In this document: piece after piece, positions 1 through 9,508 of the stretch
Layout of the letters: every line of letters starts with the position of its first letter
Numbering within the stretch: the stretch's first letter is position 1
Origin: a virus
Taxonomy: Duplodnaviria; Heunggongvirae; Uroviricota; Caudoviricetes
Virus record (IMG/VR): IMGVR_UViG_2706794675_000010
DNA: 9,508 bases
Direction: 5' to 3' (one strand)
Notes under the pieces: model-generated
The model's database searches: none
The model's input: the letters and a program-made list of their open reading frames with translations, nothing else
Told to the model about the DNA's origin: nothing
Position numbers and translations under genes: made by a program

Positions 1-242
1 GAACAGGAGGGACAGCTGATAGAAACAGAAGCCACTGGAGCACCTCAAAAACACCATCATACACTAAATCAGTAAGTTGGCAGCATCACCCCGCCACAGA
101 ACAATTATTGCTTTTGCCGTTGATGACAATAAAGTTTTTATCGCAGGCGTATACCACGGTGGGCAAATCTATGAAACCGATTTTTTATCCAGTGCACCGT
201 AAAACCCCCATCCTTCAGGGCGTGGCGGATATCAAACTTTGG

Positions 243-1325
243 TCATTTTCTCTGGCTGATCTTTACCGGATAACCATCCCGAAGATCAATTAAGTGCTCC
301 GGTTCAGAAGCAAACCATGCATAAGATCCCCACGCCAATTCTGGTATTGCCTTTTTAAAAGGCAGAGCACTTCTGTCCATAAATGCCGTAAGGAATGCAA
401 GATTTTTCTCGCTGAACCCAGCGTCAATAGCCAAATGAGTGAGAGTAACTTTTCGTTCCCTGTTTATAGGCCCATCTGTCGCAACTACTTCAGTGAAAAC
501 TACAAGCATGTCCGAACCCGTTCGGTCCTCTCCCAAATCAATCAAAATAATATCTGGAAGTGCTTTTGAGGCATCAATATTCAGCCCCAATGCTTTTGCC
601 AATACATCATCCTGAGCAACAACTTTATTCCCGGATTCAGACAACCAGAGCACAGTTGGATTCTTAAGAAAATTAGGAGCAAAAACTTCGATGACGGCCT
701 TAGCTATTGTACTTGACGGGCCCGGAGCTAAAGTTCTCTTCTCTCCATTTGGGAAAGTGACGACTACGGCATCAGCAGCAATCACTGCCCCTGATTTCAA
801 TAAACGCAACCTAGCAAGAGCGGCTTTGTTCAAATGATTTTCTTGCCAGGAACTTATTGCACTCAGCAGCGAATCTCCTTCAAGCCCGGCATCAAAGAGT
901 GCTGCAAAAGAGCGATTCAAACTGTAACGAGGACGAGAGGATGTGGTGGGTATACCTTTACGCTCAACAATTGCATTGCAAGGTATTAGGCCATTTTTTA
1001 TAGTTTCATCACGTATTGGCTCACGCGTATTTTCCGCATACCATGCATCAGCAGGCCTTATCTTTTGTTTAGAGAAAGTCATCTTTACCCAGCTTTCTCT
1101 GGACGCATCATCAGTAAGAGCAGCCTGCGAATCTCCCATACTTACAACCTGGCTGGGCCTTATCCATCGCCCCAGCCCCTCAACCGCACCAGCATAAAAC
1201 ATGACAAAAATTGTTTTTGCAGCTATTTCCCGAATTAAATATCCACGATTCTCAGTCCCTTCAGGGAAAATTAATTGTAATCTTTCCCGGATAACATTCA
1301 ATGGGGGAACAACAGGCAGATTCAT
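243..1325 (-). CDS. Putative restriction endonuclease-like partner of the adjacent methyltransferase (possibly BsuBI/PstI-like Type II REase); function unproven
   Basis: 360-codon ORF. Its ATG (1325-1323) overlaps the TGA stop of the upstream methyltransferase gene (ATGA at 1322-1325), with GGAG about 10 nt upstream. N-terminal part looks winged-helix-like; C-terminal part has LPDIILIDLGED...MLVVFTEVVAT, which could be a degenerate PD-(D/E)xK core but lacks a clear ExK. Family guess rests on size, context and memory, not a search. Confidence 0.6.
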   Translation of the reverse strand: MNLPVVPPLNVIRERLQLIFPEGTENRGYLIREIAAKTIFVMFYAGAVEGLGRWIRPSQVVSMGDSQAALTDDASRESWVKMTFSKQKIRPADAWYAENTREPIRDETIKNGLIPCNAIVERKGIPTTSSRPRYSLNRSFAALFDAGLEGDSLLSAISSWQENHLNKAALARLRLLKSGAVIAADAVVVTFPNGEKRTLAPGPSSTIAKAVIEVFAPNFLKNPTVLWLSESGNKVVAQDDVLAKALGLNIDASKALPDIILIDLGEDRTGSDMLVVFTEVVATDGPINRERKVTLTHLAIDAGFSEKNLAFLTAFMDRSALPFKKAIPELAWGSYAWFASEPEHLIDLRDGYPVKISQRK

Positions 1326-3154
1326 GCAATCATCACTCCATAGAAACCAGCGATAGTTCTCTCAATAATCCGTCTGTGGACGCCAGCATCAATTAACGAT
1401 TGAATCTCCATCACCTGCTCCAGAGAAGGCAACGGGATTGAATTCAATTCATAGGCCGAAACAGCAACACTTCCGCTTATACACCTGAACGCCCGATCGA
1501 CAACATGCGAATTAAGTAGCATATCAATAACATCAGGGCGAACCGCAGAGAACAATCCGTTTGAATATACAATATTAATATGGTTTTCAACTACTACGCC
1601 ACCAGTTTCATCTATAAATCCCTGAGGTAAAATTGCCGCTAAAATCCTTCTGTCCTGTTCCTTCGATGTTGTCCGCTGAACAAGCACACATTCAGATTTT
1701 GTCACAAGGAAACCCTGTTGTGGGGTTATATCGATATAGGGAACATGATTTTTTCTGTCTGCACTAAAACGAAAACCAGCTGAAGTTATTGATTCCGCCC
1801 AGACTAATGGGTAGCTATTTTTTCCTTTCGTCGTACGCAACTGCGACTTAAATCGATTCCAGACTAACTGACCTGTAGAGACTGAGTATCCCAGATCAGC
1901 TAAACGCGTAGACATCTGTTTTAATACATTAAGAAAACAGGCATCATCTTTAACGCGTGGCAAAAGCCACGTTGCTCCACCTTTTTCTATATCAACATTA
2001 CCTATTTTCTCAATTTTTGCTTTGTTCAACCCCTTAGGGACAAGTGAGGATACCTGGGCCCGAACTTTATGTTCTCCCGCCTTGAATGCTGTCAACATTG
2101 TTTCCTGGAGAACATCGTCAAAGACCCCATCCCTGTCAGTGACGAAATCAAGGGCATACGGAGTAGTTTTTTCGGTCAAAAGGGTTCGCAGCGCGGTGAA
2201 ATACTGCCCACCAAGAAAAGAAGTTGGCGTAAGAAATGCAATAACTCCTGTTTTCTCTTTAACCATGCGAACAGCTAAGTCGGTGAACAATCCATATAGA
2301 TTTGCATGACCAAATAACGAACGAGAATATTTTTCTCTCGTTTTAATATCGAGAGTGACACGTCCGTAAGGCGGATTCCCTACCACAAGATCATAACCAG
2401 AAAATTTATCTTGCTGAAGCGCATCAGCAACAATAATTGTATCTTCAGGCAATCTACGTTTTACCTTTACACATAGTGGCATTAGTACAGATTCGAGCAA
2501 TACCAAACTCATCCAAGCCGCAAATGGATCGATCTCTATCCCCTTTAAACGACGACTGATTCTCCTCAACATCCATTCAGGGGAAGACCCCTTGTCTTTT
2601 TTTAACATTCGAATGGCTACTGGTGCCAAAAATGCACCGCCACCACACGCAGGATCAATAACCGATGCATGAGAAAAATCAACACCAGACTTTTCAGCCA
2701 GGTCCAAGAGACGCGCTACCAAAGGTGGGGGGGTATAGTAAGCCCCCAATTCCGAACGGTAAGCGGATGGCAGCATTACCGTATAAATTGACCCAATCAG
2801 ATATCCAGCGTCCTCCGCCGGAAATTGAGCAATAAGCTCACCTGTTCGTTCAGCGAGCTCGCGTGCATCACATGGAATGTCTTCTATGTAAACAGTGTGC
2901 GGTACTGCCCTCATTTTAATGCTGCTTTTTTGCTTTTTTGCAAGGGTATCCCAATATGCAGCTACGATGCTGAAGCAGTATGAGCGGGCATGCATCAACC
3001 TTGACTGCCCGGTTTTGTAATTGCCCGCATAACCTTTGGCCATGGCTTTACAAGTTTGATATCTTTCCAGATTAGAAAACTCATTATCTGTAAAAAAATC
3101 AAAATGTTGCACATTCATAATGTAAAATCCTAATGTATCAAACATGCGGGCCAT
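1322..3154 (-). CDS. Gamma-class N6-adenine DNA methyltransferase (TaqI/Eco57I-like), 610 aa with C-terminal target-recognition region
   Basis: Motif X-like GAYYTPP (aa 137-143), motif I VIDPACGGGAFL (verified on DNA, minus strand of 2627-2656), motif IV GNPPYG (minus strand of 2366-2377). Order X, I, IV with about 340 aa of C-terminal extension fits gamma-class amino-methyltransferases. Start uncertain: ATG at 3154 has a weak SD; an in-frame ATG at 3118 has AGGA 9 nt upstream. Confidence 0.85.
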   Translation of the reverse strand: MARMFDTLGFYIMNVQHFDFFTDNEFSNLERYQTCKAMAKGYAGNYKTGQSRLMHARSYCFSIVAAYWDTLAKKQKSSIKMRAVPHTVYIEDIPCDARELAERTGELIAQFPAEDAGYLIGSIYTVMLPSAYRSELGAYYTPPPLVARLLDLAEKSGVDFSHASVIDPACGGGAFLAPVAIRMLKKDKGSSPEWMLRRISRRLKGIEIDPFAAWMSLVLLESVLMPLCVKVKRRLPEDTIIVADALQQDKFSGYDLVVGNPPYGRVTLDIKTREKYSRSLFGHANLYGLFTDLAVRMVKEKTGVIAFLTPTSFLGGQYFTALRTLLTEKTTPYALDFVTDRDGVFDDVLQETMLTAFKAGEHKVRAQVSSLVPKGLNKAKIEKIGNVDIEKGGATWLLPRVKDDACFLNVLKQMSTRLADLGYSVSTGQLVWNRFKSQLRTTKGKNSYPLVWAESITSAGFRFSADRKNHVPYIDITPQQGFLVTKSECVLVQRTTSKEQDRRILAAILPQGFIDETGGVVVENHINIVYSNGLFSAVRPDVIDMLLNSHVVDRAFRCISGSVAVSAYELNSIPLPSLEQVMEIQSLIDAGVHRRIIERTIAGFYGVMIA

Positions 3155-3368
3155 AACATCTCATGGTGGCGCATAGCAAACTGGCCCGAAGAATATCACG
3201 CACCAAGTCGATCTCATAACCCGTTATGACAATAAATCTTTGTAGCTGAACTCACTTGGTGATTTGTCAATCATTCCTGGCCTCCAGTTCGTCCTGAATC
3301 TCTTTATCGAGTTCACCGTATTTGTTAGTCCTCATCACTCACGACTTGACTTCCAGAAATAACCTTGA
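3155..3368 (-). promoter_or_regulatory. Intergenic region upstream of the methyltransferase operon; candidate independent promoter (unmapped)
   Basis: 214 bp without a convincing ORF, in a stretch where the other genes are tightly packed or overlapping. Contains a perfect TTGACA on the minus strand (plus 3265-3270), but I could not pair it with a good -10 hexamer. Confidence 0.3.
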
Positions 3369-3725
3369 TTATTCGGGGCTATATTTTGTCACCCTGCGTA
3401 TCCGCGCTTTCGCATTACGCTCAATCTGGATTAGCTTTTCTATATTTTTTCGCCTTTCCCGCTCCTCCTGGCGCAAGAGCCTTACATCATCTGCCAGTCT
3501 GGTTTCTCTTTTCGCCACAGAGAGCATCCAGTCAAATGGCTCCACAACTGCACCGCAAATTTTACAGCGGACCTGACGCTCTTTTTCGTCAACCCGGACA
3601 GAAGCGTGATGGCAATATGGTCTTTCCGATGGCTCATAAAGAAAATTAACCTGATTACGAGGGTTATCCTCTTTTACCGGAAATAAAACAATATTGCTTA
3701 ACTCATCTTCTGGTTTTATTTCCAT
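3369..3725 (-). CDS. Hypothetical protein, 118 aa, with Cys/His cluster (zinc-ribbon-like) and basic coiled-coil-like C-terminus
   Basis: ORF with strong SD AGGAGAGGAG immediately upstream of the ATG at 3725-3723. The track's longer version starts at a GTG at 3782 directly after the upstream stop. Motif PYCHH...x17...CKIC; C-terminal tail rich in R/E/K. Confidence 0.55.
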   Translation of the reverse strand: MEIKPEDELSNIVLFPVKEDNPRNQVNFLYEPSERPYCHHASVRVDEKERQVRCKICGAVVEPFDWMLSVAKRETRLADDVRLLRQEERERRKNIEKLIQIERNAKARIRRVTKYSPE

Positions 3726-3782
3726 GCTCCTCTCCTTTGATGCGAATGCCAGCGGTAATTGAAGCCTGATAGCTAATTTCAC

Positions 3783-4205
3783 TCACAGTACCGCCTCCTG
3801 AAAATCACCCTGATAGAAAGCCGGTACACGCTGCATAACTTCACTCTTCCGGCACTCGCGACAGATTATGTTCTGATGTCTGTCGTAGCGGCGTATTTCT
3901 CCGTCCGGTAATGACCAGATAAGGTCCGGATCAACCACAGATGGTTTCTTCAGCTTTGCCCTCGAGAGTTTTTTGCGGGCGTTTTGCCAGTCCTTACGAG
4001 CCTGTTCAGACGGGAATAACCCGTAGCCAGAGTTGTATACATCCCCACTGGCAACCAGCTCTCTGGCGAGAACGCTTATTAAATATCTTGTCGCCCCGGT
4101 TTTAGCTTCCAGTTGTCGTAACGTCTCGCGCCCACTCTGGCGTACGAGTTCAACAACCTGCCCCTTAATTTTTTCCCGCTCTTCCTGTGTAAATACTTTT
4201 GCCAT
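3783..4205 (-). CDS. Hypothetical protein, 140 aa, with N-terminal HTH-like segment and C-terminal CxxC
   Basis: ATG at 4205-4203 (MAKVFTQEE...) preceded by a G-rich SD (GGGGG) and lying 15 nt after the upstream stop at 4221-4223; the track ORF begins at a TTG at 4220. HTH-like LRQLEAKTGATRYLISVLARELV; CRECRK near the C-terminus. No family recognised. Confidence 0.55.
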   Translation of the reverse strand: MAKVFTQEEREKIKGQVVELVRQSGRETLRQLEAKTGATRYLISVLARELVASGDVYNSGYGLFPSEQARKDWQNARKKLSRAKLKKPSVVDPDLIWSLPDGEIRRYDRHQNIICRECRKSEVMQRVPAFYQGDFQEAVL

Positions 4206-4220
4206 AAGCGCCCCCGGCAA

Positions 4221-4946
4221 TCACTTTTCCGACACAATACGACCGGAGGAATCGACAATCTGTCGAACAATATCCCGGTGCTTGTTCAGCTCCCGCAACG
4301 CGGCGCAGACACGCTCCCACTTCTGGACATGACTTTTCGCCCGACGCAGTTCGCGGTTTGCCATATGCAGCGATGGTAAAACCAGGTCATCCGCTTGCGT
4401 TTCGGTGAACGATGGCAACGACTGCACAATGTCCGCCACAGTTTCTGTTTTAATTTCTTCCTGTGTTGCAGCTTCCTGTACCGGTAACGCAACACCTGCT
4501 GGCTGAGGAAAGACTTTACCATCCGTTTCCGCTATGGATGCGGCTTTCGGCTCTGCCGGTAAATCAGCGCCCGGTATGCAGTACCGAAATTTACCGCCCT
4601 GATTCACGCGAATCAGACGCCCTTTGCTGATTGCCATGGCCAGCGATGAATTCGCCCGGCGGGAGGTAATCCCGAACATCAGTGCCAGCTCATCCGCCGT
4701 TTGTGGGCCATGTTGTTCAATCGCCTCAGTCAGCATTTGCGCTGTCACTTTCGGTACCGGTGACACTGGTTCACTTTCACCAGCCTGAATCAGCCACCAC
4801 ATCGAACCCTTGTTATCCGCTTCACCACGGCGCTTCAGTTTCCACAGTTCGTTGACCGCATCTTCACGGCTGATTCCAAGGCGGGACGCCACCACATGTG
4901 AAGAGGCTCTTTTCAGTGCTTTCAGTGCGTCAAATACAGTTTCCAT
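4221..4946 (-). CDS. Hypothetical prophage protein, 241 aa, with two winged-helix-like segments separated by a Pro/Ala/Glu-rich linker
   Basis: ATG at 4946-4944 (METVFDALK...) with GGAGGA 8 nt upstream, 21 nt after the DnaC-like stop. The track's longer ORF starts at a TTG at 4964. Segments [25 protein letters not shown] and [33 protein letters not shown] look like wHTH. Family not confirmed. Confidence 0.6.
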
Positions 4947-4967
4947 TAAAACATCCTCCAACAAAAA

Positions 4968-5470
4968 TTACTTCACAACTCCCGGAAAGCTGACATTTGA
5001 ACGCCAGCTATCCCAGTTAAACGTCACCCACCGACAACCGTTCATGGTCATGCGGTCCATAATCCTCTCACCAAGAAGCGTGCTCATTGCGGCATGATTC
5101 AGGTTTGTTAACATCCCGACACTGCACAGTGATGCTGTCCGGCGATCAATTATCTGGTGCAATACCACCTGCTCGTTTTTCGTCTCCCGCTGAATGCCTA
5201 TTTCATCCAGGACCAGCAAATCAACCCCGCAAAGCTCCTGTAAAAATTTTTCACCGGATTTGCCGTTGTCGTAGCTGTCATGCAACACGCTCATGACATC
5301 AGACTCGGTGACGATAATCACGCTGCGCCCCTTCGCCATCAGCCGGTTACCCATCGCCGCTGCAAGGTGATTTTTCCCGGTGCCGGTTTTACCGCTGAAC
5401 ACAAAATTCGTGCACCCGGTCATCAGTTCGTCAGCTATGGATTTGGCCTGGCTCAGCGCGTATTTTTGCC
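4968..5470 (-). CDS. DnaC-like helicase loader / IstB-like AAA+ ATPase (lambda P-position replication protein); 5' end missing in the N-run gap
   Basis: Walker A FSGKTGTGKN verified on the minus strand of about 5371-5400; Walker B LLVLDEIG. About 167 residues are visible, so the N-terminal portion lies in the gap. TAA stop at 4968-4970. Confidence 0.85.
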
Positions 5471-5748
5471 NNNNNNNNNNNNNNNNNNNNNNNNNNNNNN
5501 NNNNNNNNNNNNNNNNNNNNNNNNNNNNNNNNNNNNNNNNNNNNNNNNNNNNNNNNNNNNNNNNNNNNNNNNNNNNNNNNNNNNNNNNNNNNNNNNNNNN
5601 NNNNNNNNNNNNNNNNNNNNNNNNNNNNNNNNNNNNNNNNNNNNNNNNNNNNNNNNNNNNNNNNNNNNNNNNNNNNNNNNNNNNNNNNNNNNNNNNNNNN
5701 NNNNNNNNNNNNNNNNNNNNNNNNNNNNNNNNNNNNNNNNNNNNNNNN
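5471..5748. other. Run of 278 N (assembly gap or masked sequence)
   Basis: Ns directly visible from 5471 to 5748. The gap removes the 3' end of the O-like gene and the 5' end of the DnaC-like gene. Track ORFs that are mostly X across this span are artefacts. Confidence 0.99.
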
Positions 5749-6591
5749 CACCCCCTCGCGCAATCTGGCCTTCCAGGCACTGAATGCGGATTTCTTCGGG
5801 TTTGCCCCGGCACGCAACGGGTATTCCCGCCAGACCTGTTCGAACACATCCGGATAATCCACTCGTCCCACAGGCTGCCCGGTGTTTTCCGGGGCTACCC
5901 GATCGGCTTCCCGCTGAATGGCGGAATCGGCTTCAGGCTGCTGCAGTTGGAGTGATTGCTCCGGCCTTGCGGTCATCACCTGCTGCACAGCGCCCGAATC
6001 GGCTTTCAGCGCATACGCTGAATCGGCTTCCGGTGTCGAGCCTGCTGGCTGACCAGGATTGACGGTCTGAACATCCCCTGCCTGGTTCGTGGCGTTTTTT
6101 ACGCCATGGACCATAGTGTTTTGATCTTCTTTATCTGTATCTTTATCTGTATCTGTCGTGACTCGTCGTGACATGTGCGTGACATTTCGTGACGCGCCGT
6201 GACAATCGCCATTTTGTTCCCGCTTTCTTTCCCTCTCTCGCTGCGCCCTCTTGCGCTCTGCAGGAGATTTTGCGGTTTGCGAAATATTGCCGTTGTCCTC
6301 TTTAAGCACCTGGCGTTTTTCCCATCCAGTGATTAAATCACCATCAAGTACCCGCCCCTGCATCGTCTGCAAAATTGAATCAATTACCTCTTCTGTCACG
6401 TCGAGCGCACTTGCCAAATCTTCTGTCGTGACATCAATGTGACCTCGCGTGACATTTCGTGACGCGCTCACCAGGAGGTGGATATACACTGCCATCACTG
6501 TTGCAATTGGCTGCCCTGACACCCTGGCAATTGTTCGCCACTTAGGGTCATTTGGCATGTCATGCCATAATCTGAGCCAGGCGTTAGCCAT
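5749..6591 (-). CDS. Replication initiator (lambda O-like / Rac YdaU-like replisome organiser); 3' end missing in the gap
   Basis: ATG at 6591-6589 with SD GAGGTGA 5 nt upstream (track start is a GTG at 6597). Occupies the O position between the CII-like and DnaC-like genes. Two iteron arrays lie inside the coding sequence, as for lambda ori inside O. Frame is continuous to the gap edge at 5749. Confidence 0.75.
6128..6203. repeat. Candidate replication origin, array 1: tandem 12-bp AT-rich repeat followed by five CGTGAC iterons
   Basis: TCTTTATCTGTA occurs twice in tandem (6128-6139, 6140-6151). CGTGAC recurs at 6157, 6167, 6178, 6188 and 6198, i.e. spacings of 10, 11, 10, 10 bp, about one helical turn. 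Confidence 0.6.
6395..6467. repeat. Candidate replication origin, array 2: (C/T)GTGAC iterons plus one inverted copy
   Basis: CGTGAC at 6427, 6448, 6458 and TGTGAC at 6438 (spacings 11, 10, 10); inverted GTCACG at 6395-6400. The 21-mer GCGTGACATTTCGTGACGCGC is identical at 6177-6197 and 6447-6467. Confidence 0.55.
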
Positions 6592-6662
6592 ACTCACCTC
6601 TTCTGATACCGAATCTTTTTACTCACGAGTTGCCGGGAGCGATTCGATATGGCTATTGTCAG

Positions 6663-7088
6663 TCAATGTACTGCCACAGCATTTCCTGCCGGGCCACCAC
6701 GGTTCATCTGATTGAAACCGGCGATTGCCACTGCGACAAAATCATCAGCGTCTCTCACCAGTCGTTCATGCGTCTCCACCAGTTCCCGAAAATAAGCTGA
6801 ACTGTGGCTGCGCATTCGAGCCACCAGCGGAGGTGGCATTGCCCTTTCGATCGCAGGTAACAACGCCTGAATTTTTTCAACAGCGTCAGGGGTGTCTTTA
6901 TCCAGCCAACGGAAAATCTTTTGGGTGTTGAGATAAAGCGTGTTGTGCTTGCTGTCGTTATGCAGAACCGGAAACGTCATTCCCAGTTCGAAATAAACCC
7001 TGGTTATTTCAGCTGCCGGAACTTTTTCACCGTCCGGATGCGCCCAGGCTTTCATCGCCATGCGGATGTGTTCATGCTTGATTTTCAT
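6663..7088 (-). CDS. YdaT-like protein (CII-position regulator of Rac-type prophages)
   Basis: 141-aa ORF beginning MKIKHEHI..., which I remember as the N-terminus of the E. coli Rac-prophage YdaT family. Its ATG (7088-7086) overlaps the TGA stop of the Cro-like gene (ATGA). Sits between the Cro-like and O-like genes. Confidence 0.65.
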   Translation of the reverse strand: MKIKHEHIRMAMKAWAHPDGEKVPAAEITRVYFELGMTFPVLHNDSKHNTLYLNTQKIFRWLDKDTPDAVEKIQALLPAIERAMPPPLVARMRSHSSAYFRELVETHERLVRDADDFVAVAIAGFNQMNRGGPAGNAVAVH

Positions 7089-7348
7089 GAATCAACCCCC
7101 GCCGATGGTTGTGTGTTAGCCTGAAACTCAGCAGGCAAGCCGTCAGTTGGGTTGGGGTAGGTTTTACTGTCAATCTCATGTGGGGTCACCACCCATCCCG
7201 TTGCTTCACACCAACGTAATATTTTTTCTCCTGTAAGTTTTGCACGCCCCGTTATAACGTGGCTGACCATCCCTTGGGATGCGCCAACAATCTCAGCAAA
7301 TGAACTCTGGGTTATATGAAAATGATGCAAATATTCTCCAAGATTCAT
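7085..7348 (-). CDS. Cro-like HTH transcriptional regulator (YdaS-like)
   Basis: HTH segment ITQSSFAEIVGASQGMVSHVITGRAKLTGEKI. Divergent from the cI-like gene across an operator-bearing intergenic region. ATG at 7348-7346 chosen; the track's longer ORF starts at a TTG at 7375. Confidence 0.7.
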   Translation of the reverse strand: MNLGEYLHHFHITQSSFAEIVGASQGMVSHVITGRAKLTGEKILRWCEATGWVVTPHEIDSKTYPNPTDGLPAEFQANTQPSAGVDS

Positions 7349-7384
7349 AATCCGCCCTATGTGATGTGTTACCAATGCATAATT

Positions 7385-7425
7385 AATAGCACTGTTATTT
7401 TTAAAAGTAAATAGTGATACTATTT
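7385..7425. promoter_or_regulatory. OR-like operator pair and divergent promoter region between the Cro-like and cI-like genes
   Basis: Perfect 17-bp palindrome AAATAGTGATACTATTT (7409-7425) and related AATAGCACTGTTATT (7385-7399), centres 25 bp apart. Candidate minus-strand promoter with -35 TTTACT and -10 TATTAA overlapping these sites (low confidence). Confidence 0.5.
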
Positions 7426-7459
7426 CAAAGTGATTAGCAATCTTATTAGAATTGGATGT

Positions 7460-7960
7460 ATGAAAAGAAAATCATTGTCAGACACCGACCTCAACGCCGC
7501 CAGAAGACTGAAAGAAATCTGGATGGCAAAGAAATCTCAGTTGGGATTGACTCAGGAACGTGCGGCGGAAATTATGGGGTTTTCAACACAAGGGGCGGTA
7601 AGTCACTACCTAAATGGTCAAACCCCACTAAACCTTGAGGCTGTTCTAAAGTTTGCTGGCTTACTGAAAGTTCCCCCTGAGTCAATCAGGCCAGACATGG
7701 TAGATTTGCTGCAAATTGCAAGGATGTATTGTCGAGAACCACAGCAAGATAACATAGTCGCATTACCAGCAGACACAGAACAAACAGAGGATGAACTACC
7801 GTTTGCCGTAGAGCCGATGGAACGAGATTTAATCCATACGTTCAGAGCTTTTCCGAAAGAAGATCAAGAACACATGCTTCAGGAGATGAAAGATAAAAAA
7901 GAATCAATGGATCGTACGGTTGCGCGGTGGTTAGCTGCACAAAAAGGCCGTCGCGCCTAA
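7460..7960 (+). CDS. cI-like XRE-family HTH transcriptional regulator (PaaR-like) without a recognisable S24 peptidase domain
   Basis: HTH segment LTQERAAEIMGFSTQGAVSHYLNGQTPLNLEAV. ATG at 7460 (track ORF starts at a GTG at 7430). Transcribed divergently from the Cro-like gene and followed on the same strand by a toxin-antitoxin pair, as in the paaR-paaA-parE arrangement I recall from E. coli O157:H7 prophages. Confidence 0.75.
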   Translation: MKRKSLSDTDLNAARRLKEIWMAKKSQLGLTQERAAEIMGFSTQGAVSHYLNGQTPLNLEAVLKFAGLLKVPPESIRPDMVDLLQIARMYCREPQQDNIVALPADTEQTEDELPFAVEPMERDLIHTFRAFPKEDQEHMLQEMKDKKESMDRTVARWLAAQKGRRA

Positions 7961-7979
7961 ATCAGAGGAGATATGTAAA

Positions 7980-8174
7980 ATGAGTACAGTCCTTTCCCCA
8001 ATGGTTTCAGAATTTGAGACAGTTGAGCAAGAAAATAGTTACAACGAATGGCTGCGGGCCAAAGTAGCAGCAAGCCTCGCGGATCCCCGCCCGGCGATTC
8101 CGCATGATGAGGTAATGGCGGAAATGGAACAAATTATTGCCCAAATTGCTGCTGCAACTCACAGAGGTGAATAA
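7980..8174 (+). CDS. Small antitoxin (PaaA-like) of a ParE-family toxin
   Basis: 64-aa ORF with GAGGAG 9 nt upstream. Its TAA stop overlaps the ATG of the downstream toxin gene (TAATG at 8172-8176). Small, acidic protein. Family named from context and memory. Confidence 0.7.
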   Translation: MSTVLSPMVSEFETVEQENSYNEWLRAKVAASLADPRPAIPHDEVMAEMEQIIAQIAAATHRGE

Positions 8175-8464
8175 TGTTACCCGTTTTATGGCTACCATCT
8201 GCTCGTGATGATTTGCGCCAGATCGTAGCCTACATAGCTAAAGAAAATCCCGCGGCAGCACGCAGAATGAAAATTCGAATTGAAACATCCGTTTTGCCGC
8301 TCACAGAGCATCCTTACCTGTATCCTCCAAGCGAGCGAGTTCTTGGTCTTCGTGAAATTGTAACTCATCCTAACTACATCATCCTTTACCGAGTAACAGC
8401 ATCAAGCATAGAAGTAGTAAATATTGTGCATTCTCGAAGACAGTATCCAGGCAAAAACAGTTAA
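8174..8464 (+). CDS. ParE/RelE-superfamily toxin (ParE-like)
   Basis: 96 aa with the typical ParE pattern: MLPVLW...ARDDLRQIVAYIAKENPAAA...HPYLYPPSERVLGLREIVTHPNYIILYRV...IEVVNIVHSRR. SD AGAGGTGA upstream; translationally coupled to the antitoxin. Confidence 0.85.
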   Translation: MLPVLWLPSARDDLRQIVAYIAKENPAAARRMKIRIETSVLPLTEHPYLYPPSERVLGLREIVTHPNYIILYRVTASSIEVVNIVHSRRQYPGKNS

Positions 8465-8480
8465 TTATTCCCGCCGACAG

Positions 8481-8503
8481 AACCACCTTAGGGTGGTTTT
8501 TTC
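8481..8503 (+). terminator. Rho-independent terminator after the toxin gene
   Basis: AACCACC-TTAG-GGTGGTT forms a 7-bp stem with a 4-nt loop and runs into TTTTTT (8497-8502), 17 nt after the parE-like stop. Confidence 0.6.
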
Positions 8504-8520
8504 TTGCCCCAACAAAAAAC

Positions 8521-8562
8521 AATAGCGATGCTATTTACATCAAAAAAAATAATGATGCTATT
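8521..8562. promoter_or_regulatory. OL-like operator pair (same motif as OR), candidate early-left promoter region
   Basis: Perfect palindrome AATAGCGATGCTATT (8521-8535) and AATAATGATGCTATT (8548-8562), centres 27 bp apart. Both match the half-site consensus AATAGY-N3-RCTATT seen at 7385-7425. Candidate -35 TTTACA at 8534-8539, with only weak -10 candidates. Confidence 0.45.
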
Positions 8563-8743
8563 GTTTCAGGCGTCAACCCACCCCGCCCCACAGAATGCAG
8601 GGCAATACTTCGAGTTACCAGACAGTGGTCAGGGGTTAAGTAGCCAGCCCGAGGCGTAAGAACATGACGGCAGGGTTCAATCTTTAACTATGCAGCAGGT
8701 TTTTTGTTCCGCCACCCCGGCGTTAAGGGGAAATGAGGTCAGC

Positions 8744-8896
8744 ATGGATACTATCGATCTTGGCAACAACGAATCTCTGGTGTGCGGCGTGTTCCCTAAC
8801 CAGGATGGAACGTTTACCGCCATGACGTATACCAAAAGCAAAACGTTTAAAACCGAATCTGGCGCGCGTTGCTGGTTAGCCAGAAACACTGACTGA
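8744..8896 (+). CDS. Hypothetical small protein, 50 aa
   Basis: ATG at 8744 with GAGG about 6 nt upstream (the track's longer ORF from 8690 lacks an SD). First gene downstream of the OL-like sites; not arginine-rich, so not obviously N-like. Confidence 0.4.
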   Translation: MDTIDLGNNESLVCGVFPNQDGTFTAMTYTKSKTFKTESGARCWLARNTD

Positions 8897-8907
8897 TGAG
8901 GCTGACG

Positions 8908-9273
8908 ATGGAATTTAAAGATTTACCGTCTGATGTACAGAAAACAGCAGCTCATACATTGCATTCTGTGCTGCGAGAAATCGGGAAAGATATTGCAAGC
9001 GAGCCAGCAAAAGATCTGGCCCGGAAAATCAAGACCGCTTTCGTTGAGCTTTATAATGTTGGCACTGACTCTGAAACTGTCGAGACCAAGACCGTAAGTT
9101 CACCAATATTCTCACTTGAGCCAAGCGTATTATCAGGTGAAATATGCACCGAGATTTCCAGCGAACTGCTTCCGGTAATACGAGAAGCAATTCGCCGTCG
9201 CGGTTTGGATGGAAGTTATGATCATGACGTTCTGCAAGTTCTCAGGACAATGGTGACTTCACTGGGGATTTGA
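8908..9273 (+). CDS. Hypothetical protein, 121 aa
   Basis: ATG at 8908 with GAGG 6 nt upstream; an alternative ATG at 8896 overlaps the upstream stop (TGATG). Acidic protein, no family recognised. Confidence 0.5.
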   Translation: MEFKDLPSDVQKTAAHTLHSVLREIGKDIASEPAKDLARKIKTAFVELYNVGTDSETVETKTVSSPIFSLEPSVLSGEICTEISSELLPVIREAIRRRGLDGSYDHDVLQVLRTMVTSLGI

Positions 9274-9508
9274 TCCCTGCGTCCTCTAAGCTTTTGATAT
9301 AGCGGTCCTCCAAGAAGCGGTAAATTTTGTCGAAATCATCTTTTCCCTCTGGTTTATTCAGAGGATTACAGGACCCGTAAGTAGCGGCATACATTTCAAC
9401 CGTTTGGTAATGACTCCAACTTATTGATAGTGTTTTATGTTCAGATAATGCCCGATGACTTTGTCATGCAGCTCCACCGATTTTGAGAACGACAGCGACT
9501 TCCGTCCC

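What the first reader, a model, noticed from the sequence alone, without database searches (positions are those of the whole stretch)
243..3154. Restriction-modification-like two-gene module embedded in the prophage early region
A 610-aa gamma-class N6-adenine methyltransferase (motifs YYTPP, DPACGGGAFL, GNPPYG) is translationally coupled by an ATGA overlap to a 360-aa protein, which is the classic layout of a Type II R-M operon. The pair follows a 214-bp break after otherwise tightly packed genes, and looks more AT-rich than the replication module, suggesting a horizontally acquired moron in the nin-equivalent position. If active, it would give the lysogen a defence phenotype and the phage self-methylation.
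Basis: partly seen in the sequence, partly recalled or inferred. Interest (0 to 1): 0.7.

Follow-up and report, generated by a model that had tools for sequence, protein, structure and literature searches.

The report
Prophage-borne PstI-family restriction-modification cassette
The two genes are an ordinary Type II restriction-modification pair of the PstI/BsuBI/SdaI family, carried as accessory cargo on a decayed, IS1-truncated prophage remnant of Shigella sonnei; databases already annotate it as such, and only its recognition sequence and activity remain unknown.

Summary
On the minus strand, a gamma-class N6-adenine methyltransferase gene (1322-3154) overlaps by ATGA a 360-aa gene (243-1325). 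The longest M ORF is 610 aa, but homologues are 598 aa, so the start is probably the ATG at 3118.

The 360-aa protein is a full-length BsuBI/PstI-family restriction endonuclease. Both Pfam domains match (E 9e-45 and 1e-30), and its only PDB relative by sequence and by fold is SdaI.

The M-then-R order is kept in about 76 of 80 loci from many phyla, usually with a stop/start overlap. dN/dS is 0.06 for both genes.

The same cassette sits in accessory slots of other prophages: lambdoid ones in E. coli, Kluyvera and Citrobacter, and a P2-like one in Serratia. A sister E. coli prophage carries different cargo in that slot.

The window is Shigella sonnei. There the prophage is a defective remnant: IS1 lies about 150 bp beyond R and host genes follow it.

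The nearest characterised system is EcoGIII of Stx2 phages (CTGCAG), at only 24-27% identity and in a different phage position. Specificity and activity are therefore untested. Novelty and interest are low.

The parts
1322..3154 (-). M gene: gamma-class N6-adenine DNA methyltransferase. The longest ORF is 610 aa; the probable true start is the ATG at 3118, giving 598 aa.
   Evidence: ORF. Pfam Eco57I 1.7e-13 and N6_Mtase 2.1e-9. PADLOC MTase_II PDLC03338 at 1.8e-300 over residues 7-608. Motifs YYTPP (2726-2740), DPACGGGAFL (2627-2656) and GNPPYG (2363-2380). Homologues are 598 aa.
243..1325 (-). R gene: BsuBI/PstI/SdaI-family Type II restriction endonuclease, 360 aa, with an N-terminal HTH recognition domain and a C-terminal PD-(D/E)XK-type nuclease domain.
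   Evidence: Pfam PF17728 1.2e-30 (aa 10-172) and PF06616 9.3e-45 (aa 188-349). PADLOC REase_II 2.8e-128. SdaI 2ixs matches by sequence at 1.8e-16 and by fold at E 7.8e-16. Family-invariant G232, K234, D239, P257-D258, E279, V281, G285, R291, W332 and W337 are all present.
1322..1339 (-). M/R junction: ATGA stop/start overlap (1325-1322), with GGAG (1339-1336) inside the 3' end of M.
   Evidence: Sequence. Among the 78 related loci with both genes on the contig, 30 have the same 4-base overlap, 10 a 1-base overlap, and most others lie within a few bases.
3119..3285 (-). Upstream region that travels with the cassette and presumably holds its own promoter. A candidate extended -10, TGATATTCT, lies at 3198-3190; this is inferred, not shown.
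   Evidence: Similarity to cassette copies on other phage backbones starts at 3285, 3277 or 3227. Similarity to an R-M-less sister prophage stops at 3384. The strict sigma-70 scan found nothing in the gap, and the gap holds no C-protein ORF.
92..202 (+). 3' remnant (last 36 of 103 codons) of a parE toxin gene, convergent with R. In E. coli relatives an intact parD-parE pair lies here.
   Evidence: The translation RHRTIIAFAVDDNKVFIAGVYHGGQIYETDFLSSAP* equals the C-terminus of ParE in L001.
1..90 (.). End of an IS1 copy that truncates the prophage just beyond R.
   Evidence: 100% match to IS1 of phage P1, SfIV and others. In complete S. sonnei chromosomes this IS1 is followed by host genes.

Best explanation
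This is a two-gene Type II restriction-modification cassette of the PstI/BsuBI/SdaI family. M is a gamma-class SAM-dependent N6-adenine methyltransferase that would mark the host's copies of a short recognition sequence. R is a two-domain enzyme (HTH recognition domain plus PD-(D/E)XK-type nuclease) that would cut unmarked copies on incoming DNA. The genes form an M-first operon with a stop/start overlap, so R translation follows M translation and no controller protein is needed. The cassette, with about 110-170 bp of its own upstream DNA, moves as accessory cargo between temperate phages. In Shigella sonnei it lies at the IS1-truncated end of a defective lambdoid prophage remnant and is present in nearly all genomes. 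Shown here: family membership, operon architecture, mobility, prophage context and purifying selection. Inferred: enzymatic activity in S. sonnei (about 0.6), its own promoter, a defence phenotype, and a recognition sequence related to CTGCAG (about 0.4).
For: R matches both BsuBI/PstI Pfam domains above their cut-offs, and M matches N6_Mtase and Eco57I. Full-length PADLOC Type II models match: M at 1.8e-300 and R at 2.8e-128. SdaI is the only significant PDB relative, by sequence and by fold of an AlphaFold model with pLDDT 81.5. Family-invariant residues are intact. An M homologue lies immediately upstream of R in about 76 of 80 loci across many phyla, with 40 stop/start overlaps of 4 or 1 bases. 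dN/dS is 0.06 for both genes against the Kluyvera and Citrobacter copies. The cassette sits between replication genes and DUF968/RusA/Q in E. coli, Kluyvera and Citrobacter prophages, and between gpA and portal in a Serratia P2-like prophage. It also occurs on 31 IMG/VR contigs. A sister prophage has other cargo in the slot. GC3 is 0.36 against 0.52 for the backbone. The exact proteins are found on at least 1000 S. sonnei contigs. PADLOC found 982 Type II R-M systems in 994 S. sonnei genomes (PMC13293514). The related EcoGIII of Stx2 phages has the same M-then-R ATGA layout. It is reported to methylate and cut CTGCAG and to restrict lambda-like phages (PMC6602927).
Against: There is no methylome, cleavage or expression evidence for this system. 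The strict promoter scan found no sigma-70 consensus in the upstream gap. S. sonnei is a young clone, so identical ORFs across its genomes say little about selection within it. Identity to any characterised enzyme is only 24-27%, so specificity cannot be transferred. CTGCAG is not depleted in 67 cassettes (83 observed, 88 expected) and only mildly depleted in the flanks (ratio 0.80).
Confidence: 0.85

Rival explanations
1. The pair is a silent or inactive relic in S. sonnei. The genes are intact only because the clone is young; they are not transcribed, or R or M is catalytically dead, and there is no phenotype.
For: The surrounding element is a decayed prophage: IS1 lies at both ends, parE is truncated and the late genes are gone. 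No consensus promoter was found in the gap. Prophage-borne methyltransferases are often silent (PMC4393132).
Against: Both ORFs are full length, retain every family-invariant residue, and are identical or nearly identical to the E. coli copies. At least 110 bp of conserved upstream DNA travels with the cassette. If only M were silent while R was active, the cell would die.
Confidence: 0.3
2. Its main role here is selfish stabilisation (post-segregational killing), not phage defence. Loss of the IS1-bracketed 9.3-kb remnant would dilute M before R and kill the cell, which would explain why the remnant persists in nearly all S. sonnei. This does not exclude defence.
For: The fragment 91-9405 is bracketed by two IS1 copies in the same orientation, a ready substrate for deletion. 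It is nevertheless retained species-wide. The same remnant carries toxin-antitoxin modules: a parE remnant at 92-202 and PaaA2/ParE at 7980-8464.
Against: No experiment supports it. Retention is equally explained by the short age of the clone or by benefit from defence.
Confidence: 0.25
3. It is the S. sonnei copy of EcoGIII, the CTGCAG system of Stx2 phages, with the same specificity and the same large effect on host transcription.
For: It shares the Pfam families, the M-then-R ATGA overlap and a prophage location. EcoGIII properties are described in PMC6602927 and PMC3893438.
Against: R is only 24-28% identical to EcoGIII R and M only 26% identical to EcoGIII M. M has about 110 extra N-terminal residues and R about 45. 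EcoGIII lies just downstream of cI, not in the nin-like slot. Only 2 of 5426 complete E. coli genomes carry this cassette. Orthology is rejected; shared specificity remains possible, at about 0.4.
Confidence: 0.03
4. M is a stray Type I (HsdM) or Type IIG/BREX-type methyltransferase, as the RefSeq name 'HsdM family class I SAM-dependent methyltransferase' might suggest, and the neighbouring gene is unrelated.
For: RefSeq product names. Weak partial NCBIfam hits to BREX PglX and Alw26I-family models.
Against: All those hits fall far below their cut-offs. No hsdS, hsdR or BREX genes are adjacent. The full-length best models are Type II M and R. The M-R pairing is conserved in about 76 of 80 loci.
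Confidence: 0.02

Closest known systems
EcoGIII R-M system of Stx2-converting phages (E. coli O104:H4, O111, O145; recognises CTGCAG)
   Same: It has the same Pfam families for R, an N6-adenine M followed by R with a 4-base ATGA overlap, and a location on a lambdoid prophage. It is reported to methylate and cut CTGCAG and to restrict lambda-like phages (PMC6602927, PMC3893438).
   Different: Identity is only 24-28% for R and 26% for M. Sizes differ: M 489 aa against 598/610 aa, and R 317 aa against 360 aa. EcoGIII sits directly downstream of cI, whereas this cassette sits after the replication genes. The specificity here is unknown.
SdaI restriction endonuclease (PDB 2ixs; CCTGCAGG, from my own knowledge)
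   Same: SdaI is the only solved relative. It matches by sequence at E 1.8e-16 over residues 96-349 and by fold at E 7.8e-16, probability 1.00. The PD...E.V..GP...R and W....W signature is shared.
   Different: Identity is about 20%. The whole-chain TM-score is only 0.40-0.44, so the two domains are oriented differently in the model. The query has an extra N-terminal segment.
PstI and BsuBI R-M systems (family namesakes; CTGCAG)
   Same: Both Pfam domains named after them match R above their cut-offs. A roughly 494-aa PADLOC MTase_II model (PDLC03227) aligns to M residues 131-602 at 2e-50. I take that model to be PstI-like, but its membership was not checked.
   Different: They belong to a different subfamily: the best PADLOC models are PDLC03338 and PDLC03589, not PDLC03227 and PDLC03420. 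I did not hold the PstI or BsuBI sequences, so no direct comparison was made.
Defence cargo in variable slots of temperate phages (lambdoid nin-region morons; the P2 hotspot between gpA and portal). The concept is from my own knowledge of the literature.
   Same: The cassette occupies exactly such slots in E. coli, Kluyvera, Citrobacter and Serratia prophages. An R-M-less sister prophage carries other cargo there.
   Different: In S. sonnei the carrier phage is dead, so the cassette now behaves as a chromosomal gene pair.

Membership tests
Orthodox Type II restriction-modification system | A separate DNA methyltransferase with SAM-binding and catalytic motifs | tested here: met
   The motifs DPACGGG and NPPY are present. 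Pfam N6_Mtase and Eco57I match above their cut-offs. PADLOC MTase_II matches at 1.8e-300.
Orthodox Type II restriction-modification system | A separate endonuclease gene adjacent to M and conserved as a pair | tested here: met
   An M homologue lies immediately upstream of R in about 76 of 80 loci. Both genes diverge at equal rates and have dN/dS of 0.06.
Orthodox Type II restriction-modification system | No specificity subunit, translocase or helicase partner (which would indicate Type I, Type III or BREX) | tested here: met
   Neighbouring genes are phage backbone, parDE or IS1. NCBIfam hits to BREX and Alw26I models are far below their cut-offs.
Orthodox Type II restriction-modification system | M and R act on the same defined sequence, and methylation blocks cleavage | not testable with these tools
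   This needs a methylome and cleavage assays. Site-avoidance statistics gave no signal.
BsuBI/PstI/SdaI restriction endonuclease family (PF17728 + PF06616) | Both domains present, above Pfam gathering scores | tested here: met
   PF17728 scores 106.6 bits and PF06616 scores 152.2 bits; both cut-offs are 27.
BsuBI/PstI/SdaI restriction endonuclease family (PF17728 + PF06616) | SdaI-like fold and conserved nuclease-domain residues | tested here: met
   2ixs is the only significant PDB match. K234, D239, PD257-258, E279, V281, G285-P286 and R291 stay invariant even when EcoGIII R is included in the alignment.
BsuBI/PstI/SdaI restriction endonuclease family (PF17728 + PF06616) | Recognition of CTGCAG, or CCTGCAGG as for SdaI | not testable with these tools
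   Identity to the characterised member EcoGIII is 24-28%. No published methylome covering this system was found.
Gamma-class N6-adenine methyltransferase | Motif order X (YYTPP), then I (DPACGGG), then IV (NPPY), then a C-terminal target-recognition region | tested here: met
   The motifs lie at residues 139-143, 167-176 and 259-264. The C-terminal 250-600 aligns with M.EcoGIII and with TIGR02987.
EcoGIII orthologue | High sequence identity and the same position in the phage genome | tested here: not met
   Identity is 24-28%. EcoGIII lies downstream of cI; this cassette lies downstream of the replication genes.
C-protein-controlled R-M system | A small HTH controller gene with a C-box upstream of R | tested here: not met
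   The gap holds only spurious 22-32-aa ORFs and no inverted repeat. R overlaps M directly.
Prophage moron (accessory cargo) | Sits in a slot whose content varies between phages that share the flanking backbone | tested here: met
   L001 and L085 carry the R-M pair plus parDE. L084 carries DUF551, hokD and HTH+ImmA between the same backbone genes. Cassette edges lie at about 3285-3227 and about 238-250.
Prophage moron (accessory cargo) | Its own promoter, allowing expression from the repressed prophage | tested here: inconclusive
   A conserved upstream block travels with the cassette. There is no strict sigma-70 match, only a candidate extended -10 at 3198-3190, found by eye.

The most novel reading that the evidence does not exclude
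This large 598-aa M / 360-aa R subfamily is only 24-28% identical to the CTGCAG enzymes. It may recognise a different sequence, which would be a new specificity in the PstI/SdaI fold. In S. sonnei it may be active species-wide, so that a dead prophage's R-M pair shapes the species' barrier to foreign DNA. It might also act as an epigenetic regulator, as EcoGIII does, and protect the IS1-bracketed remnant from deletion.
Probability: 0.2. Interest if true: 0.4.

Novelty: new member of a known kind. Interest (0 to 1): 0.2.

Why it matters
The finding matters little beyond annotation. If the cassette is active, it is the one near-universal Type II R-M system of Shigella sonnei. It would then be a practical barrier to transformation, plasmid uptake and therapeutic phages in an important pathogen, and a source of genome-wide m6A marks. 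It is also a clear example of a phage-borne defence cassette outliving its phage. The kind of system, its architecture and its family are textbook. RefSeq and PADLOC already label it correctly.

Tried and rejected
1. Inferring the recognition site from avoidance of palindromic hexamers. In 67 M-R cassettes CTGCAG was seen 83 times against 88 expected, and in 572 kb of flanks its ratio was 0.80. No palindrome stood out in the flanks. This was inconclusive.

2. Finding the site in the literature. Searches for S. sonnei methylomes, REBASE, BsuBI and CTGCAG found nothing on this system. The supplements of Blow et al. 2016 hold none of the species that carry relatives. The Salmonella CAGCTG enzyme M.SbaUII is beta-class and so unrelated.

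3. Using nanopore-type assembly errors as a proxy for methylated motifs. The differences were only homopolymer indels.

4. Names of homologues. None carries a characterised enzyme name.

5. Strict promoter, terminator and inverted-repeat scans of the upstream gap. They found nothing.

6. Identity with EcoGIII. Rejected on 24-28% identity.

7. A Type I or BREX reading of M. Rejected.

8. Three loci (L024, L026, L079) pair this R subfamily with a different, PstI-like M. I hoped this would tie the specificity to CTGCAG, but those M proteins are only about 31% identical to M.EcoGIII, so they give no inference.
Full report
**Observation.** The window has two minus-strand ORFs, 1322..3154 (610 aa) and 243..1325 (360 aa). 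Their junction on the minus strand reads GGAGTGATGATTGCATGAATC. The R start ATG (1325-1323) therefore overlaps the M stop TGA (1324-1322) by four bases, and a GGAG lies 10 nt upstream. The gap to the next upstream gene is 214 bp, whereas the genes upstream abut one another. GC is 43.6% (GC3 0.36-0.37) for the pair against 51.1% (GC3 0.51-0.53) for the replication module. One correction: almost all homologues of M are 598 aa and align from residue 13. The real start is therefore probably the ATG at 3118, preceded by TAGGAT at 3132-3127.

**What the proteins are.** R matches both Pfam domains of the BsuBI/PstI restriction endonuclease family: the HTH domain at 1.2e-30 (aa 10-172) and the nuclease domain at 9.3e-45 (aa 188-349).
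- R also matches a full-length PADLOC Type II REase model at 2.8e-128.
- Its only relative in the PDB is SdaI (2ixs), by sequence at 1.8e-16.
- An AlphaFold model built on 39 homologues (pLDDT 81.5) also finds SdaI alone (E 7.8e-16, probability 1.00). The whole-chain TM-score is only 0.40-0.44, so the domain arrangement differs.
- Residues invariant across the subfamily and shared with EcoGIII R are all present: G232, K234, D239, P257-D258, E279, V281, G285-P286, R291, W332 and W337.

M matches Pfam N6_Mtase and Eco57I above their cut-offs. It matches a full-length PADLOC Type II MTase model at 1.8e-300. Its NCBIfam hits to BREX and Alw26I-family models are far below their cut-offs. No hsdS, hsdR, helicase or controller gene is nearby. 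This is an orthodox two-gene Type II system.

**Comparative evidence for the operon.** R has thousands of homologues. I examined 80 loci from representative genomes spanning Proteobacteria, Firmicutes, Acidobacteria, Planctomycetes and others.
- A homologue of this M lies immediately upstream of R, on the same strand, in about 76 loci.
- The junction is a 4-base overlap in 30 loci and a 1-base overlap in 10. Most of the rest lie within a few bases.
- Stop/start coupling is therefore a conserved property of the subfamily, and M-first translation is the likely means of keeping R below M.
- Against the Kluyvera and Citrobacter copies, both genes have dN/dS of about 0.06 with nearly equal dN and dS. 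The pair evolves as a unit under strong purifying selection.

**Origin and context.** The exact proteins are Shigella sonnei proteins, seen on at least 1000 contigs and indexed in 4192 blocks, mostly on 5-10-kb contigs.
- Only 2 of 5426 complete E. coli genomes carry the cassette. In both it lies in a lambdoid prophage. The gene order is replication genes, DUF977, a small backbone gene, M, R, an intact convergent parD-parE, then a small gene, DUF968, RusA and Q. That is the nin-equivalent slot.
- A sister prophage with the same backbone (E. coli 2012C-4227) holds DUF551, hokD and an HTH/ImmA pair there instead.
- The cassette also occurs in the same slot of Kluyvera and Citrobacter lambdoid prophages, and between gpA and the portal gene of a Serratia P2-like prophage.
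- It is found on 31 IMG/VR contigs. No isolated phage in a 50,697-genome collection carries a close relative; the best match is 28% identical.
- Similarity between copies on different backbones begins at window 3285, 3277 or 3227 and ends at about 238-250. Backbone similarity to the R-M-less phage ends at 3384.
- The mobile unit is therefore the two genes plus about 110-170 bp upstream, which presumably holds its promoter. By eye there is a candidate extended -10, TGATATTCT, at 3198-3190. The strict consensus scan found nothing in the gap, so the promoter remains an inference.

**State in S. sonnei.** Bases 1-90 are an IS1 end. Bases 92-202 are the last 36 codons of parE. Bases 9406-9508 are the other end of an IS1 in the same orientation. 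In four complete S. sonnei chromosomes, the IS1 next to R is followed directly by host genes: a mannitol dehydrogenase-family gene, ydfZ, a GntR regulator, an SDR and dcp. The nin, Q, lysis and structural genes are gone. Any role is now that of a chromosomal R-M system. A published PADLOC survey counts 982 Type II R-M systems in 994 S. sonnei genomes and notes their uniformity (PMC13293514). That fits this cassette being the species' standard Type II system, although the paper does not name it.

**Comparison with the known.** The closest characterised system is EcoGIII of Stx2 phages. It methylates and cuts CTGCAG, restricts lambda-like phages and alters the expression of about 1,900 genes (PMC6602927 and PMC3893438). 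EcoGIII has the same M-then-R ATGA layout. However, it is only 24-28% identical in R and 26% in M. Its proteins are shorter (489 and 317 aa). It sits just downstream of cI rather than after the replication genes. The present cassette is therefore a different subfamily of the same family, not an orthologue.

**Specificity.** Specificity could not be determined. Site-avoidance statistics, homologue names, literature searches and an assembly-error proxy all gave nothing.

**Verdict.** The feature is an ordinary Type II R-M cassette, already annotated as such, carried as prophage cargo and stranded in a dead prophage of S. sonnei. What remains open is whether it is active and which site it recognises. 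Interest is low.

Noticed in passing
window 1-90 and 9406-9508: Both ends of the window are IS1 ends in the same orientation, so the 9.3-kb prophage fragment (91-9405) is bracketed by directly repeated IS1 copies. The window is probably a whole draft contig broken at IS1. Complete S. sonnei chromosomes show the same two IS1 copies (L123-L126).
   Followed up: yes
window 92-202 (+): This is the 3' remnant of a parE toxin gene (last 36 of 103 codons), cut by IS1. In E. coli FDAARGOS_943 and VL7S7 an intact parD-parE pair lies convergent with R at this place.
   Followed up: yes
window 7430-8464 (+): A cI-like HTH repressor (7430-7960) is followed directly by a PaaA2-type antitoxin (7980-8174, Pfam 3e-23) and a ParE toxin (8174-8464, 1.8e-17), the latter two overlapping by one base. 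This resembles the three-component paaR-paaA-parE modules of E. coli O157 prophages (resemblance from my own knowledge).
   Followed up: partly
window 5471-5748: A run of 278 N (an assembly gap) lies inside the replication genes. It creates artificial long overlapping ORFs (4968..5849 and 5431..6597). In complete genomes these are separate genes for a 354-aa replisome organiser and a 248-aa DnaC/IstB-like ATPase.
   Followed up: partly
window 2727-2733: There is a C7 homopolymer on the coding strand of M, in the YYTPPP codons. One S. sonnei assembly (L125) has C6 there, which splits M while R stays intact. That assembly has other homopolymer indels, so this is most likely a sequencing error rather than phase variation.
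   Followed up: partly
L024 4410-5987, L026 4407-5942, L079 2135-3664: In three loci an R of this subfamily (46-60% identical) is paired with a different, shorter PstI-like methyltransferase lineage. Those M proteins are about 31% identical to M.EcoGIII and about 27% to this M. This suggests methyltransferase replacement within the family.
   Followed up: partly
67 M-R cassettes from L004-L083 plus the window: AGATCT is the most depleted palindromic hexamer inside the cassettes (15 observed, 46.6 expected, present in 13 of 67 cassettes). It is only mildly depleted in the flanks (ratio 0.71). The cause is unexplained and may reflect coding bias or shared ancestry.
   Followed up: no
L035 about 4146-5992: In a Paracoccaceae genome the M gene is interrupted by a 1.8-kb insertion encoding a transposase-like protein, while R appears intact.
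   Followed up: no
L090 2580-10336: A Serratia marcescens P2-like prophage carries the same cassette between the replication gene gpA and the portal gene. This is the region known to hold variable anti-phage cargo in P2-like phages (from my own knowledge).
   Followed up: partly
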